Source of the DNA: Escherichia phage Gally
Length of the DNA stretch: 38,682 bases
Strand: one strand, 5' to 3'
Sequence record: OV696608
Each line of letters starts with the position of its first letter. The stretch's first letter is position 1. The position numbers are program-made. Below, one piece after another: positions 15,001-21,000 of this stretch.

Positions 15001-18000
15001 TGAAATTTTGGATGGCTTTGATACAGCATCAGTCACTATCTGAACTAATTCTGAATTAAGAGAGCGGCCATTGGATTTGGCTCGCTGTTTTAGTTTTTCC
15101 TTTAATTCGTAAGGTAGCCGCAGATTAAATTGCGGGTCATCTCTTCCCATTCTTGATGCCTCGCTTTTGTGAGTGGATCGGCATCTTATTATCTGCTGGT
15201 TGCATCCTCAATAAGACCACAGTGGTCTCTTTGTTTGATTAATAATGCATCACTGTGGCAATGCTGCGGCGATTCCTTGTATCTGGAGCAAATTAAATGA
15301 CAGACATTACAGCCAATGTTGTAGTGAGTATGCCTTCGCAACTCTTCACTATGGCGCGTTCTTTTAAAGCGGTTGCCAATGGCAAAATTTATATCGGTAA
15401 AATTGACACTGACCCGGTAAATCCAGAAAACCAGATTCAGGTTTATGTAGAGAATGAAGATGGCTCTCACGTTCCTGTTGCACAGCCAATCATCATTAAC
15501 GCTGGCGGGTATCCGGTATATAACGGACAGATTGCCAAATTCGTAACTGTACAGGGCCATTCTATGGCTGTTTATGATGCGTATGGTGCGCAGCAGTTCT
15601 ATTTTCCTAATGTGCTGAAGTATGACCCTGATCAGTTACGGCAGCAATTAGAAGACCCGGATGGTTCTAAAAAATATCCAGAATTGCAGATTGCACGATG
15701 GCGTGATGACAAAGACGTTCGCGGTTGGGGGGCTATCAGTGATGGAATAACTGACGCTACTGAGGCATTCTCTAACGCAGGCTATAGAATGTTTGTTCCT
15801 GATGGCGATTTTGCAGTAAATACTCTCGAAGTTGATGTATCTTCTGCTCGAGGTATTGGGAGGATTGTTGCAGATAATGGCTCTCTTATTTCAGTTTCTC
15901 GTCTGCTTGAAACTGACAAACTTGCGCAGAGAAAAATGATGGAACCTTTTTTTGGTTTTCAGGGAGAAACAAACACAGAAATTTACCCTAATGCCAGAAA
16001 TGCGTTACAGGGGATCGCATATTGCCGTGTTAATGGCATTGAAAAACTATTTGTCACACAACGGCCTGTTGGGCCGACCTGGTCAGATAAAGAAAGAGTT
16101 CGTATTGTTGAGTTTAATCTTTATGATGATGGAAGGGTAGTAAACCATGTTGCGTATTCTCCAGAATTAAACCTTGGGCACGGTTTTGATCTTTCTGCCA
16201 TGGTGGAGAATGGTCAAGTATATTTATATACATCAAGTGTAACCAATTCAGGTGAAGATGGGGAGTCTGCAGGCAAAGGGTTTAGTAAAATAACTTGGCG
16301 AGGGGCAGAAACAACTCAGTCTGACGTAAAAAGTTATAATGTATGGGGGATTACTGGTAGCGGTCACCCATTTCAAGATTACAATCGTGCAGGAATTGCC
16401 ATTTCTTCTGACGGTCGTCTTTTAATAATGGTTAATACACCAAAGAGTGATGCCGCTAAACGAACTGTATTTATATACGATAAAATATCAATTGATAAAC
16501 TTGAAGATAAAACATTAGCAAACCCCATGTTTGTTTGGGAAATGAGCGACTCACCTTCTGAAGGCGCTTACTCTGTACAAGGTATTGCGTCTGATGGAAG
16601 ATATATACATATACTTAAGGGAGGGGCTAACGCTTTTGGAAAGCATCATATCTTTACATATGATTTAACAGGTAATTTACTAAGAAAATTAGATATCGAT
16701 GATGCAAGGTCGCAATATGGGCGCGATGGGTTGCTTAACCATCCAACTCTTGGGAATCCAGCCAGATTTGAGCCGGAAGGTCTAACTATTCGTGGTGAAG
16801 AAATAATTATAAGCTGCATAGAAACATGGAGGGCAGGAGCTAATATTGTAAACTGGCGTGGAAGAAGATGGGCTGCATCATCCATTGAGACTTCTGGAAT
16901 AATTGGTGTCCCTCCATCAAATGGCTCTTATTGGGTAGAAACAACCAAGGATGCAAATTCTGGAGATTGGAGTCCTGAAATAGATTATGGATGGGGAAGT
17001 AGCTATTCTCTTGAGAAAAAGACAATTTACTCTATACGACCAGCGACTGGTAACAACGATGATCAGAACCTTAATTCTGGCATAACCAATGCTTCAAGTA
17101 ATGCAGGTGTAGATGCCGGAGAAAGCGGGCGAAATATATCATTTAGATGGCGCAATGCTTTTAATATTGTTGCATTTAGCGAACGTCTTGGTGAATACTT
17201 CAACGCTATTATGTATGATAATAGCTCAAGACTAAGAATATACGATCAGCAAAACGGTAGTGATAACACTGTTTATGGCTCAATCCAGGCACTATTTACG
17301 TCATCATTTAAGGGATTGATTTTAAGGGGTAGGGGGGTATCAGCATCAAATAGTTCCTATATTAGGTTACATTCATCTGATGATCCAAACTACCCAAATT
17401 CGATCATTGAAGGAACAAGAACAGATGGAAGTTTTTCCAGGGAAACAGATTCAAACGGAACCACTACATTCGCATCGGACTCAGAGCACGAACCGTTGCG
17501 TATCAGAAGGGCTTCAGATGGTTTGTTGTTTGCATACGAGAAAGTAAGAGGTACAACTCTCTTTGGAATTTATAGAGGCTCCGGTTCACCTGAGGGTGTT
17601 GTGACCGCACCTCAGGGGTCAATGTATATTGATTATAATGGTGATTGGTATCAAAAGAAAACAGGAACAGGAAACACAGGATGGGTGTTAAAATAGACTA
17701 TTCTATTTTAATTGTTATCACTAAACCACCTCCATTGGAGGTGGTATTTTATTGTTTATATTTAAGATAACTAAGTGATTAGTAATAGAATATTATATCT
17801 TTATATCTATAGATTTTTATCACACTTACTCAGTTCATTTGTCATGTCAATAAGTTTATTTAAAAAGTTGATTAAGTTGAGTAATGGTTAAAGTTTTTAT
17901 ACGTTTCCATAGGCCATATTTGACAAAGGAGTAGTAATGGATATAACAGCTTTTCTTCACGCACTTTGCGCTGTTGTCGCACAGGCTCTGGTTGGTCTTT

Positions 18001-21000
18001 TTACCGGAAACTGGGCTTACGGTGCGATAGCAGGTTGTACGTTCTTCATTGCGCGTGAACACACCCAGGCAGAATATCGCTGGATAGAAAAGTTTGGGAA
18101 AGGGAAACGTATCAACATGCCATGGTGTGGAGGTTTTGATCCACGCGTGTGGGATGTGGGAAGTCTGTTGGATTTTTCTTTCCCAATTATCGGATGCTTA
18201 TTGGTATGGATTCTTGCATCGTAGCGAACACATAATTACCGATGAAACAAAACTGAGACACACAAAGCTTTGCACTGGATTGCCAGGCGTTGTGCTATTC
18301 GATAGTTAAGGTGTATCACTCCACCTTTTCATCAAGCCAGTCCGCCCACCACTGCATCATTTCTCTGCGCTTATCGAGATACTGAGCATGGTTGTAAATT
18401 CAGCAAACGACGTAATGTGTTTGACAAAAAATTAGCGCAAGAGGACAAAAAATCACCTTGCGCTAATGCTCTGTCTCAGGTCACTAATACCATCTAAGTG
18501 GTTGATTCATAGTGACTGGATATGTTGTGTTTTGTCGCGTTTTGCAGTCTATTATTTAATCATTAAGTAATCTAATGCTATGATTTTTAAATTATTTATG
18601 TGATTTTGTCATCCTTTAGGTGAATAAGTTGTATATTTAAAATCTCTTTTACTATCAATGAATTAATATAAACAGGTCATTATTAGTCAAAATAAAATCA
18701 TTTGTCGATTTCAATTTTGTCCCATTCACGCCCACGACTGTCCCTATACCGCGCCGCCATTGAATCTGATTTATGCCCGAGAAGACGTTGAGCAAACTTA
18801 TCGCCAATCTGATTCCGGTATAGCCTCGCCGACAGGCTACGCAGTTCATGGAATGTTGGCGGGTCTCCATCAAATGAGAGTCCAGATACATTTCTCGCCT
18901 TTGTAAAATACTTAGATACTGTTTTCGGGGAAAGCGGTTCGTGATGCGTTGATGCAATTATTGTTTCACTGCCGCTGGCCTCCCTGCATTTCTGTAGTGT
19001 ATCAGCCAATGAGATATTGAGCGCGTCAATCGTTAGCATCAGCGGAATGGCGAGCTTAGTACCTGTTTTACCCTGCTCAATGTGAAGATGGTTGTCGTTT
19101 ATGTCTGACCATTTCATTCTACATAAATCGCCTACTCTCTGCCCTGTAACGACAGCCAAATCCATTGCCAGCCTCAGCCAGATTGGTAGCGGTTCGGCTG
19201 CATGGTAAATCGCGACATATTCATTAGCTGTCAGCCTTGAGCGCCTTACTTCTGACTTTGCTGTGCGGGTTGCTGTTACCGGATTCGTTTCCACATGCCC
19301 CTCGGCTATTGCCTCACGAAAAACGTCAACAAGGGTTGACCTGATTAATTTTGCGGAAGCTGCTTTACCTTCTGCTACGTAGGTGTTTAGCATTGCTGCC
19401 ACTTCTTTCGTTGATATGTCAGTGAGCGGTTTGTCCGGCAATTTTCTTCGGATTACCCTGATTTTGCTGGCGTAGTCGAGTAGAGTTTTCGGTCTGATAC
19501 CCCTCTCGCTGAGGATTGTTTCATATCGGTCAAGCCACGCATGAAGAGTGATTGCGTCAGCGCCTTTAATTCTGTCTATCAGTGACTCACGCCTGTTCTC
19601 GGATAGCAACTCAATATTGGCCTGAATAGCCTCTGAAACTGCTATCCTTCTGTCTCTGCCTAATCCAAACTCTTTACCCGTCCTTGGGTCCCTGTAGCAG
19701 TAATATCCATTGTTTCTTATATAAAGGTTAGGGGGTAAATCCCGGCGCTCATGACTTCTCCTTCTTCCCATTTCTGATCCTCTTCAAAAGGCTACCTGTT
19801 ACTGGTCGATTTAAGTCAACCTTTACCGCTGATTCGTGGAACAGATACTCTCTTCCATCCTTAACCGGTGGTGGGAATATCCTGCATTCGCGCACCCATC
19901 GACGAACTGTTTCAAGGCTTCTTGGGCGTCGCTGGCGTGCGTTCCACTCCTGAAGTGTCAAGTACATCGCAAAGTCTCCGCAATTACACGCAAGAAAAGC
20001 CGCATTGATGCGGCAATGGTAGGTCTGGATATCTTGAGAAATGAACGGGCCTCATCGAGTGTGAGGCTGTGGTTAGTCCTTGCGTAGCTCGCTAATTCTT
20101 CTGTAAGTCTCTGGTGCTTTGTTTCCGTGTATCTTCATTTCAGACTTCAACAGAGCAACGAGAGAATCCCATTCGTTGAGGATGCCTTTGAATGCCGGAA
20201 CGCGCTTTGCAACCTTGTCGAATGAATCCCTGATTTCTGGAATCTGCTCGACAAGCGCAACGCATCGTCGGAAATCGGCTGCGTCATGTGGAGCACCGAA
20301 GCTATGACCATAGATATTCTTTTTCAGTCCACATGCGATTGAGGCAAGAGTTGCGCTACTGATGCCAACATCGCCAGTCGATTGCCATTTCAAAACCTTC
20401 ATAGCCAAATCTGACATTTCTTGTCTCCAATAAAAAAACCGCCATCAGGCGGCTTGGTGTTCTTTCAGTTCTTCAATTCGAATATTGGTTACGTCTGCAT
20501 GTGCTATCTGCGCCCACAGCATCCAGTGGTCATAGCAGTCGTTGATGTTCTCTGCTTCGATAACTCTGTTGAATGGTTCTCCATTCCATTCACCTGTGAC
20601 TCGGAAGTGCATTTATCATCTCCATAAAAAACCGCCGTAGCGAGTTCAGATAAAAGAAATCCCCGCGAGTGCGAGGAATGTTATTGTCTTTTCTTCGTGC
20701 ATTTGTCGCACTTTCGGCACCATCCAGATAGGCACATCCGTCCGCAATTAACACATATAGGCCACATCATTTTTCCTCTTTTGGTTTATGAATCTGAATG
20801 GTCATGCCGCTTTGAGTGGTGACTACAATGACAGAACCAGGCTGAAGACTGTTAAGATTGAATGCTTCGTAAAACGAATCCAATGCCAGTGCTTTTTTAT
20901 TCTTTCGGTTCCACCAACGCCATCCCCTGCTACAGGCCATGTTGACAATCCACTGCCCACTCCTGTAAGCCATATAAAACCAGATGAGCAAAACCTGAAG

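What the first reader, a model, noticed from the sequence alone, without database searches (positions are those of the whole stretch)
17697..18431. Small membrane-protein gene in the conversion slot between tailspike and attP
A 95-aa ORF (17937-18224) with a consensus AAGGAG RBS and two hydrophobic segments sits in an AT-rich region between the tailspike terminator and attP. In P22 this slot carries gtrABC and in Sf6 oac (O-antigen modification); in lambda it is the non-essential b region. Here a single small membrane protein of unrecognised family occupies it, a candidate for exclusion, abortive infection or envelope modification.
Basis: partly seen in the sequence, partly recalled or inferred. 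Interest (0 to 1): 0.55.

Follow-up and report, generated by a model that had tools for sequence, protein, structure and literature searches.

The report
Tail-fibre-linked small phage membrane protein
The ORF is a real, conserved gene for a small inner-membrane protein of unknown function that travels with phage tail-fibre genes; it occurs in about a third of complete E. coli genomes and, in this prophage (Gally of E. coli LF82), is switched on inside macrophages.

Summary
A 95-codon ORF (17937-18224, +) with AAGGAG five bases upstream follows the tailspike terminator and a 22% G+C spacer, and lies upstream of an HK022-type attP/int.

The window is prophage Gally of E. coli LF82, and the gene is GALLYPH_17/LF82_765. 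The protein belongs to PHROG 1443, which has no assigned function, and has no Pfam, NCBIfam, PADLOC or PDB match. The family has 439 representatives at 50% identity across Proteobacteria. Members are predicted three-helix membrane proteins with an invariant R-E...W core (AREHTQAEYRWI...MPWWGGF...W).

In Gamma- and Betaproteobacteria the gene sits directly after the tail-fibre or tailspike gene in sipho-, myo- and podoviruses. A virulent Kuttervirus and phage HC6 carry only decayed fragments, so the fibre does not need it.

Published LF82 RNA-seq shows the gene silent in LB but raised about 30-fold in macrophages while late genes stay off. The "conversion gene" reading is therefore partly supported. 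No O-antigen-modification, holin or known exclusion family fits.

My best guess, at low confidence, is that it is a conditionally expressed accessory protein acting at the inner membrane, most likely in exclusion or envelope protection. It is a worthwhile uncharacterised family, not a new kind of system.

The parts
15297..17696 (+). Tailspike gene (context): P22-type head-binding N-terminus; GALLYPH_16
   Evidence: ORF. Pfam Head_binding at E 8e-67. LF82 annotation.
17725..17745 (+). Intrinsic terminator of the tailspike transcript: 9-bp stem, 6 G-C pairs, followed by ATTTTATTGT
   Evidence: Terminator scan. Fold -16 kcal/mol, z -3.7, with 0 of 200 shuffles as stable.
17746..17925 (+). AT-rich spacer (22% G+C) with no counterpart in the related phages. 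It is the inferred site of a conditional promoter. The only consensus-like candidate is TTAAGA-18-TAGAAT at 17762-17791. 17862-17936 is a weak DNA relic of the 3' end of an S74-type fibre gene.
   Evidence: Composition. The promoter scan is not above chance: 5 sites found against 4.4 expected. The gene's transcript level is 1.7-2.8 times that of the tailspike across the terminator. The relic is 75% identical over 80 nt to PhiR49_1, E 7e-5.
17926..17931 (+). Shine-Dalgarno AAGGAG, 5 nt before the ATG
17937..18224 (+). The gene (GALLYPH_17 / LF82_765 / LF82_RS05040): 95-aa predicted three-helix inner-membrane protein of PHROG 1443. Family-wide invariant residues are R40, E41 and W72. Near-invariant residues are H8, Q44, A45, E46 and P83.
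18225..18315 (.). Downstream spacer shared, together with the gene, with phages 611R6 and JEP4. No terminator is predicted on the + strand.
   Evidence: Alignment A3, scan, fold z -1.3
18316..18399 (-). Relic of the last 27 codons and stop of a CPS-53/P4-type integrase (IYNHAQYLDKRREMMQWWADWLDEKVE*). The gene is intact in phage 611R6. It is cut at the same point in JEP4.
   Evidence: PGAP marks a pseudogene at the same coordinates in LF82.
18423..18475 (-). Strong hairpin and T-run on the minus strand: the lambda/HK022-type tI/sib element ending leftward int transcription
   Evidence: Fold -27.9 kcal/mol, z -6.1. The HK022 record annotates a sib site in the matching region (H11).
18470..18700 (.). 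attP of HK022 type (approximate limits). In LF82 the prophage sits between torS and torT.
   Evidence: 90% identity to HK022/mEp235 attP. LF82 context. PMC9928086 text.
18698..19771 (-). Lambda/HK022-type integrase (context)
   Evidence: Pfam Phage_integrase and Arm-DNA-bind_1

Best explanation
The ORF is an intact accessory gene of a widespread, functionally uncharacterised phage family (PHROG 1443).

Shown:
- It encodes a roughly 95-aa protein with three predicted helices.
- Its central 34-residue loop (AREHTQAEYRWI...GKR..MPWWGGFDPRxW) is almost invariant from Escherichia to Comamonas, Aeromonas, Halomonas and Sphingomonas, while the hydrophobic helices vary.
- It is inherited together with the receptor-binding-protein cassette, directly downstream of the tail fibre, tailspike or fibre chaperone.
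- It is dispensable for that fibre.
- In the natural lysogen it is transcribed from the prophage under host-like conditions (DMEM, macrophages), independently of the late operon, and is silent in LB.

Inferred:
- Topology is N-in/C-out, with the conserved loop and H8 at the cytoplasmic face of the inner membrane.
- A conditional promoter, possibly of the silenced AT-rich type, lies in the 22% G+C spacer.
- The gene is also read with the tail genes late in infection in the many phages where it overlaps the upstream gene.

Guessed mechanism: the invariant loop binds a host inner-membrane component conserved across Proteobacteria. It makes the cell refractory to incoming phage at or after DNA ejection, or otherwise protects the envelope. 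This would serve both the lysogen and the late-infected cell, much as Cor, Llp, Imm or SieA do.

My probabilities:
- Real gene encoding a PHROG 1443 membrane protein: above 0.95.
- RBP-linked accessory gene that the fibre does not need: about 0.75.
- Prophage expression independent of late transcription: about 0.85.
- Exclusion or envelope-protection mechanism: about 0.3.
For: Family and conservation: phrog_1443 at E 1.4e-52; 256 homologues; 439 representatives at 50% identity, all about 70-140 aa and single-domain; invariant core; synonymous variation over invariant residues.

Structure: pLDDT 90.8, three helices. K+R averages 5.4 in the central loop against 0.5 or less in the tails and the H1-H2 turn. 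H8 and E41 lie equidistant from the hairpin turn.

Synteny with receptor-binding genes: JEP4, where the gene overlaps the tailspike stop; mEp460 and phage 21, stf -> 92 aa -> gene; Comamonas, J -> 72 aa -> gene; a Leclercia P2-like phage, fibre -> gene; metagenomic loci; phiHAP-1, fibre-assembly gene -> gene -> sheath. Upstream proteins score as tail or tail-fibre PHROGs.

Dispensable for the fibre: only truncated fragments remain after the fibre gene in Kuttervirus KFSST3 and in phage HC6.

Abundance: 1828 of 5426 complete E. coli genomes, median 2 copies, up to 7.

Expression, from PMC9928086: LF82_765 log2(fpkm+5) is 3.75/4.53 in LB, 6.03/6.10 and 7.04/7.04 in medium, and 8.02/7.89 and 8.38/8.72 in macrophages. 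log2FC is 4.9, q 1.3e-22. Terminase, portal and injection genes stay near 3-4. The gene is 1.7-2.8 times the level of the tailspike upstream of the terminator. torT downstream is unchanged.

Not a lysis gene here: a complete S/R/Rz cassette lies at 35561-36778.

Against: Known exclusion proteins are usually diverse and phage-specific. Near-invariance across phages with unrelated tails fits an enzyme or a universal host target at least as well.

The authors of the RNA-seq study classed Gally as moron-free in LB. The Tritos copy in the same strain stays at background in every condition.

Induction in macrophages is shared by all five rightmost Gally genes on both strands, and by the fibre regions of Perceval and Tritos. 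It may therefore be general derepression of AT-rich DNA and not dedicated regulation.

The promoter candidate in the spacer is no better than chance.

Topology is unsettled. The phage 21 record notes 2 TMDs, N-in/C-in, which would put the loop in the periplasm.

Some distant (alphaproteobacterial) members are not next to tail genes.
Confidence: 0.4

Rival explanations
1. A late-phase membrane protein of the lytic cycle. It would be co-transcribed with tail genes and act in lysis timing or egress (antiholin- or holin-accessory-like), or stop progeny from being wasted on the dying cell. On this view the expression seen in the lysogen is incidental.
For: Stop/start overlap or gaps of 1-4 nt with upstream tail genes in many loci. 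In betaproteobacterial prophages the gene sits immediately before two membrane proteins, an endolysin and spanins. One distant member gives a weak Phage_holin_8 hit at E 0.004.
Against: In this window a terminator and a 190-nt spacer separate it from the tailspike. The lysis cassette is complete and 17 kb away. The protein has no charged C-terminal tail, and its invariant loop is unlike holins. It is transcribed at about 370 fpkm in macrophages with the late genes off, and the study found that Gally did not reduce LF82 survival in macrophages. Only decayed fragments remain in the virulent Kuttervirus KFSST3 and in phage HC6.
Confidence: 0.2
2. A host-fitness (lysogenic conversion) factor unrelated to phage defence. 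It would be a small inner-membrane regulator or enzyme that adjusts a conserved envelope process under host-associated stress, helping LF82 in macrophages or the gut.
For: The induction pattern (LB < DMEM < macrophage) parallels that of Bor of Perceval and of GALLYPH_13/14. Near-invariance of polar residues (H8, R40, E41, H42, Q44, E46, D68, D79) suggests a catalytic or ligand site. The gene is frequent and multi-copy in E. coli.
Against: A CRISPRi gut-fitness screen of LF82 that discusses Gally genes does not single this gene out (the screen's data tables were not examined). Linkage to tail-fibre genes across unrelated hosts and habitats is hard to explain by macrophage adaptation. No enzyme family or fold match was found.
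Confidence: 0.15
3. An O-antigen or LPS modification function, the reader's 'envelope modification'. An example would be an inhibitor or helper of Wzy, Wzx or WaaL, like the small Iap peptide of phage D3.
For: The slot is the one that P22 uses for gtrABC and Sf6 uses for oac (my own knowledge). The upstream gene here is an O-antigen-type tailspike. The protein is small and in the inner membrane.
Against: It has no GtrA, glycosyltransferase or acyltransferase domain. The same, nearly identical protein follows lambda-type side fibres, J proteins and P2-type fibres in hosts with unrelated O-antigens. It co-exists with an OafA-type acetylase in 611R6.
Confidence: 0.07
4. A tail-fibre assembly or maturation factor.
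For: Tight synteny with fibre genes and translational coupling to them.
Against: Kuttervirus KFSST3 and phage HC6 keep the fibre gene while the small gene has decayed. The gene follows fibres with and without S74 intramolecular chaperones, and also follows separate chaperone-like genes. It is a membrane protein. In Tritos the fibre genes are transcribed while this gene is not. It has no Caudo_TAP-type domain.
Confidence: 0.05
5. A passenger with no cellular role, kept because its conserved core serves as a recombination joint for swapping fibre cassettes.
For: It is flanked by relics of earlier joints: an integrase 3' end and a fibre 3' end. N- and C-terminal helix types recombine around an identical core among E. 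coli copies. Synonymous diversity is lower in codons 21-52.
Against: There is strong purifying selection at the protein level with synonymous change. The start codon and RBS are conserved. The protein sequence is conserved across classes of Proteobacteria where DNA identity is gone.
Confidence: 0.05

Closest known systems
PHROG 1443 (with fragment family phrog_34165); annotated as 'putative membrane protein' CPT_21_24 in phage 21, 'FIG00639861' in mEp460-like phages and 'Ybl63' in one UniRef entry
   Same: Full-length HMM match at E 1.4e-52. Same length, same invariant motif and same position after the fibre genes.
   Different: Nothing differs. This is the family it belongs to, but the family has no assigned function, structure or publication that I could find.
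Receptor-blocking 'self-exclusion' genes encoded next to receptor-binding genes: Cor (phi80, N15, HK022, T1) and Llp (T5)
   Same: Small envelope proteins encoded beside the RBP gene. They are useful both in lysogens and late in infection, and they travel with the host-range module (my own knowledge of those systems; synteny here).
   Different: Cor and Llp are outer-membrane lipoproteins specific for FhuA. This protein has no signal peptide or lipobox, is predicted to be an integral inner-membrane protein, and is the same whatever the RBP type. No sequence similarity was detected.
Inner-membrane superinfection-exclusion proteins: T4 Imm, P22 SieA, HK97 gp15
   Same: Small multi-helix inner-membrane proteins of phages. 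HK97 gp15 is a moron inside the tail gene cluster, and SieA is expressed from the prophage (own knowledge; PMC10883804 abstract).
   Different: No detectable homology. PADLOC, Pfam and fold searches are negative. Those proteins are narrowly distributed and specific, whereas this family is highly conserved across many phage types. Exclusion has not been tested.
O-antigen conversion cassettes in the same slot: P22 gtrABC, Sf6 oac
   Same: Genomic position between tailspike and attP in P22-like phages (own knowledge). 611R6 carries an OafA-type acetylase there.
   Different: It shares no domain with GtrA/B/C or with Oac. It is found alongside such genes, not instead of them.
P2 Z/fun slot between the fibre-assembly gene G and the sheath gene FI, a known moron and defence hotspot of P2-like phages
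   Same: In phiHAP-1 the homologue lies exactly between the fibre-assembly gene and the sheath gene. In a Leclercia P2-like prophage it lies directly after the fibre gene.
   Different: That is a similarity of position only. Z/fun is unrelated in sequence (my own knowledge, not tested here).

Membership tests
PHROG 1443 (uncharacterised phage membrane protein) | Full-length match to the family HMM | tested here: met
   E 1.4e-52, residues 1-94 against profile positions 1-94 of 97
PHROG 1443 (uncharacterised phage membrane protein) | Conserved core R-E-(H)-x-Q-A-E...W and a length of about 95 aa with three hydrophobic or helical segments | tested here: met
   Alignments A1 and A2; AlphaFold model; hydropathy
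Moron / lysogenic-conversion gene | Transcribed from the repressed prophage, independently of the late operon | tested here: met
   Met conditionally, from published RNA-seq. The gene is at background in LB. In macrophages log2FC is 4.9 while terminase, portal and injection genes are not induced.
Moron / lysogenic-conversion gene | Autonomous unit with its own promoter and terminator | tested here: inconclusive
   An upstream terminator is present. The transcript level is 1.7-2.8 times that of the upstream gene. The only promoter-like site is no better than chance, and no downstream + strand terminator is predicted.
Moron / lysogenic-conversion gene | Dispensable for lytic growth and confers a phenotype on the host | not testable with these tools
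   Indirect evidence only: fragments have decayed in Kuttervirus KFSST3 and phage HC6. No phenotype data exist.
O-antigen modification (GtrABC / Oac) | GtrA-like flippase, GT2 glucosyltransferase or acyltransferase-3 domain | tested here: not met
   No Pfam or NCBIfam hit for this protein or for 58 family members
Holins / antiholins | Match to a holin family, a charged cytoplasmic C-terminal tail, and adjacency to the endolysin | tested here: not met
   No holin family hit for this protein. The C-terminus ends in ...WILAS. The phage's own S-type holin, lysin and Rz are at 35561-36778. Adjacency to lysis genes is seen only in some betaproteobacterial prophages.
Known anti-phage defence or exclusion proteins (PADLOC set) | Match to a defence-system protein model | tested here: not met
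   0 families at E up to 10
Cor/Llp-type receptor-blocking lipoproteins | Signal peptide with a lipobox cysteine | tested here: not met
   The N-terminus MDITAFLHALCAVV has no positively charged n-region and no L-[AS]-[GA]-C lipobox (sequence)
Tail-fibre assembly chaperones (Tfa / gpG type) | Soluble chaperone domain (Caudo_TAP type), required by the cognate fibre | tested here: not met
   No such domain. The protein is predicted to be membrane-embedded. Kuttervirus KFSST3 and phage HC6 retain the fibre gene without an intact copy.

The most novel reading that the evidence does not exclude
The invariant membrane-proximal loop (H8, R40, E41, H42, Q44, E46, D68, W72) may be an active or inhibitory site. 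It would act on an inner-membrane step of envelope biogenesis that is universal in Proteobacteria, for example an undecaprenyl-phosphate-linked glycan pathway or a translocase. Under that reading the family would be a receptor-independent, broadly acting self-exclusion or conversion module that temperate phages move together with their host-range cassette. That would be a new functional class of phage membrane protein, and it is present in a third of complete E. coli genomes.
Probability: 0.12. Interest if true: 0.75.

Novelty: new member of a known kind. Interest (0 to 1): 0.42.

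Why it matters
The family is one of the commoner unexplained prophage genes in E. coli. It occurs in 34% of complete genomes, often in several copies, and is conserved across classes of Proteobacteria, yet nobody has assigned it a function.

It always moves with the host-range (tail-fibre) cassette. That makes it relevant to how phages swap receptors and to engineered phages that borrow fibre modules.

In the Crohn's-associated strain LF82 it is among the few Gally genes switched on in macrophages, in a prophage reported to carry no morons. 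A defined phenotype, whether exclusion, envelope change or lysis control, would fill a gap in prophage biology and might give a new tool or target. If there is no phenotype, it remains an ordinary hypothetical gene.

Tried and rejected
Searches that gave nothing significant:
- Pfam, NCBIfam and PADLOC on the protein, and Pfam on 58 family members. Only scattered sub-threshold hits appeared, to the PhoR N-terminus, VirB3, TctB, and one to Phage_holin_8.
- PDB by sequence and by profile. The best hit, E 1.7 to Naa10/ARD1, is chance.
- The AFDB library was unavailable.
- Literature searches for phrog_1443, Ybl63 and tail-fibre-adjacent exclusion proteins found nothing on this family. The Hf4s paper was irrelevant.

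Technical limits:
- Alignment A2 was too divergent for the locus scan.
- My first automated upstream-ORF calls over-extended start codons and were redone.

Ideas tested and dropped:
- All upstream fibres share one C-terminal domain. Rejected, because the C-termini are unrelated.
- The gene depends on S74 intramolecular-chaperone fibres. Rejected, because phage 21 stf and the Comamonas J protein lack S74.
- The gene is the phage's holin. Rejected, because an S/R/Rz cassette is present elsewhere.
- Nucleotide-level constraint in the core. Only a mild drop in synonymous diversity was seen, and I did not pursue it.

Full report
**1. What is there**

The window is a circularly permuted, complete P22-like genome. 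It runs terminase, portal, coat, ejection proteins, tailspike, attP/int, early genes, Q, and S/R/Rz.

It is identical over the gene to E. coli LF82 (NC_011993.1:1036948-1037235). There the element lies between torS and torT. This is prophage Gally of Misson et al. 2023 (PMC9928086). The ORF is GALLYPH_17 / LF82_765 / LF82_RS05040, annotated 'hypothetical'.

- The ORF is at 17937-18224 (95 aa), with AAGGAG at 17926-17931.
- A strong terminator hairpin follows the tailspike gene at 17725-17745.
- A 22% G+C spacer follows the terminator.
- HK022-type attP and int lie downstream.

The interval holds two further features.
- A relic of the last 27 codons of a CPS-53/P4-type integrase lies on the minus strand at 18316-18399. 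Phage 611R6 has that integrase intact right next to its copy of the gene. JEP4 has the relic cut at the same base.
- The tI/sib hairpin of the lambda-type int transcript lies at about 18423-18475 on the minus strand.

The 75 bp before the ATG weakly resemble the 3' end of an S74-type fibre gene that precedes the homologue in PhiR49_1 and Tritos. The gene therefore arrived in this P22-like genome as part of a mosaic block, and it is the only piece of that block still intact.

**2. The protein and its family**

The protein matches PHROG 1443 (unknown function) end to end at E 1.4e-52. It matches nothing in Pfam, NCBIfam, PADLOC or the PDB.

The word-indexed search found 256 relatives, all 'hypothetical'. 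The exhaustive profile search found 439 cluster representatives, all small single-domain proteins.

The central region is very strongly conserved.
- Among closer relatives, H8, C34, R40-E-H-T-Q-A-E-Y-R-W-I50, R58, M61, P62, G66, F67, W72, D79 and P83 are invariant.
- Across the whole family, R40, E41 and W72 are invariant, and H8, Q44, A45, E46 and P83 are nearly so.
- The hydrophobic helices vary freely.
- Codon usage varies over invariant residues, so selection acts on the protein.

AlphaFold predicts three helices (4-23, 26-52, 74-94) with high confidence. Fold searches return only generic helical matches.

Charge distribution argues for an N-in/C-out protein with three membrane spans and the conserved loop at the cytoplasmic face. 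K+R averages 5.4 in the loop and 0.5 or less elsewhere. On that model H8 lies at the same depth as R40/E41 in the H1-H2 hairpin. The phage 21 record quotes a two-span, loop-out prediction instead, so topology must be measured.

**3. Where the family lives**

The strict motif scan of one genome per species found the family in several groups:
- Gammaproteobacteria: Escherichia, Leclercia, Pantoea, Silvania, Aeromonas, Halomonas.
- Betaproteobacteria: Comamonas, Acidovorax, Pigmentiphaga.
- Alphaproteobacteria: Sphingomonas, Sphingomicrobium, Chelativorans.
- Desulfovibrio and relatives.

In E. coli it is in 1828 of 5426 complete genomes, with a median of two copies and up to seven. LF82 carries three copies, in Gally, Perceval and Tritos.

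In Gamma- and Betaproteobacteria the constant neighbour is the receptor-binding gene, on the same strand and immediately upstream.
- P22-type tailspike: JEP4, where the gene overlaps the stop codon.
- Lambda-type side fibre plus a 92-aa acidic protein: mEp460, phage 21, Perceval.
- J-type tip protein: Comamonas.
- P2-type fibre with an S74 domain: Leclercia.
- Fibre-assembly gene followed by the sheath gene: phiHAP-1.
- Tail-protein PHROGs in metagenomic and distant loci.

Three further points on context:
- A second small family (phrog_1361/18574) often accompanies the gene on one side or the other.
- In betaproteobacterial prophages the gene is followed at once by two membrane proteins, an endolysin and spanins.
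- Some alphaproteobacterial copies have unrelated neighbours.

Kuttervirus KFSST3, which is virulent, and phage HC6, whose lifestyle I did not verify, carry only truncated remains directly after a fibre gene. The fibre therefore does not need this gene. An Aeromonas jumbo phage has an intact but divergent copy elsewhere in its genome.

**4. Expression**

Misson et al. re-analysed LF82 RNA-seq data (GSE154648). In LB overnight culture the gene is at prophage background, 18 normalised counts against a median of 15.6. On that basis the authors state that Gally has no morons.

In the other conditions of the same tables the gene rises steadily. Values are log2(fpkm+5), two replicates each:

| Condition | This gene | Tailspike |
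|---|---|---|
| LB overnight | 3.75 / 4.53 | 3.95 / 3.85 |
| B1 | 6.03 / 6.10 | 4.75 / 5.05 |
| B6 | 7.04 / 7.04 | 5.66 / 5.64 |
| Macrophages, 1 h | 8.02 / 7.89 | 6.71 / 6.71 |
| Macrophages, 6 h | 8.38 / 8.72 | 7.77 / 7.78 |

- I read B1 and B6 as medium without macrophages (DMEM), from the S1 legend.
- DESeq2 gives log2FC 4.9 and q 1.3e-22 for macrophages at 6 h against LB.
- Terminase, portal and injection genes stay near 3-4, so this is not lytic induction. The paper notes that 'the five rightmost genes' are induced 6- to 40-fold while structural genes are repressed.
- Converted to fpkm, the gene is 1.7-2.8 times the level of the tailspike gene on the other side of the terminator. I read this as an own promoter in the AT-rich spacer. 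The only consensus-like site there is unremarkable.
- torT downstream does not change.
- The Perceval copy is induced more weakly (log2FC 3.0). The Tritos copy is not induced at all.
- Genes on both strands of the right end of Gally, and the fibre regions of the other two prophages, rise together. General relief of silencing of AT-rich DNA is therefore a live alternative to dedicated control.

**5. What it most likely does**

The following is shown:
- It is a conserved membrane protein gene linked to the host-range cassette.
- The fibre does not require it.
- It is expressed from the prophage under host-like conditions.
- In many relatives it is evidently read with the tail genes.

The following is inferred: the functional part is the invariant loop at the membrane surface, which contacts something conserved across Proteobacteria and not a phage-specific receptor.

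The known proteins with this lifestyle protect the cell, or the progeny, from phage attachment or DNA entry. They are encoded beside the RBP and are useful both late in infection and in lysogens. Cor, Llp, Imm, SieA and HK97 gp15 are examples (from my own knowledge).

I therefore put exclusion or envelope protection at the inner membrane first, at about 0.3. The rivals are:
- a late lysis or egress role, 0.2;
- a phage-unrelated host-fitness role, 0.15;
- O-antigen modification, 0.07;
- fibre assembly, 0.05;
- a functionless passenger or recombination joint, 0.05.

The remainder is 'something else'. None of these has been tested experimentally.

**6. Comparison with what is known, and novelty**

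The gene is a member of PHROG 1443 and of nothing else. It behaves like a moron in this prophage: expression in the lysogen is met conditionally, an autonomous promoter is unproven, and no phenotype is known.

It fails the defining tests for four groups (see Membership tests):
- Gtr/Oac O-antigen modification systems;
- holins;
- PADLOC defence proteins;
- lipoprotein receptor blockers (Cor/Llp) and fibre chaperones.

The exact gene is already deposited and has public expression data. What this analysis adds is:
- the family's breadth;
- its invariant core;
- its fixed linkage to receptor-binding genes;
- its decay in the virulent Kuttervirus KFSST3 and in phage HC6;
- the overlooked conditional expression in a prophage described as moron-free.

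I rate it a new member of a known kind (an accessory, moron-type phage membrane protein). Interest is moderate, at 0.42.

Noticed in passing
window 18316-18399 (-): Relic of the C-terminal 27 codons of a CPS-53/P4-type integrase. It is intact next to the homologous gene in phage 611R6 and cut at the same base in JEP4. An older integration module was evidently replaced by lambda/HK022-type attP-int modules.
   Followed up: yes
window 13843-14358 (-) and 14463-14882 (+): GALLYPH_13 (171 aa, phrog_6067) and GALLYPH_14 (139 aa, phrog_6823) both have unknown function. GALLYPH_14 has a lipoprotein-like N-terminus, MKRIIGVVAGAILLSGC. They lie where P22 has sieA/immI. In the published RNA-seq they reach log2(fpkm+5) values of 10-11 in DMEM and macrophages, far above the late genes, although Gally was reported to have no morons.
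   Followed up: partly
LF82 prophages Perceval (LF82_181-183) and Tritos (LF82_259-261, LF82_770); PMC9928086 S1 Table: The side-tail-fibre regions of both lambdoid prophages are transcribed in macrophages while the rest of the late operon is silent. The small acidic gene after stf rises most, to log2(fpkm+5) of 7-8. Fibre regions of all three prophages behave alike, which suggests relief of silencing of AT-rich DNA.
   Followed up: partly
L009:4210-4488, L100:2076-2393, L006:7475-7999: A second uncharacterised small protein family (phrog_1361 / phrog_18574, acidic and soluble) recurs next to the membrane-protein gene, upstream or downstream. It may be the fibre's chaperone or a functional partner. 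It is absent from this window.
   Followed up: partly
L094:2980-3105 (Kuttervirus KFSST3) and L093:3965-4120 (phage HC6): Truncated, unannotated fragments of the gene lie directly after a tailspike or S74-type fibre gene in these phages. They mark fibre modules acquired from temperate phages.
   Followed up: yes
Alignment A1 (E. coli copies) and window 17997-18092: Different N-terminal and C-terminal helix variants are combined around a nearly identical central core. Synonymous diversity is somewhat lower in codons 21-52. The conserved core may act as a crossover point between fibre cassettes and downstream modules.
   Followed up: partly
L004:8300-9521, L006:8296-10190: In Comamonas-type prophages the gene is followed at once by two conserved membrane proteins (125-132 aa and 99 aa), an endolysin and an Rz/Rz1-like pair. 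This is a lysis cassette placed at the end of the tail operon.
   Followed up: no
L092:3917-4180 (Aeromonas jumbo phage PS1): An intact, divergent 87-aa homologue lies after a helicase/terminase-like gene in a 237-kb phage, away from any tail fibre gene. It is an exception to the synteny rule.
   Followed up: no
L009:4886-8335 (phage 21) and Perceval: The sitABCD iron/manganese transporter cargo lies immediately downstream of the gene, on the opposite strand, in phage 21 and Perceval. This shows that the same post-fibre slot collects conversion genes.
   Followed up: no
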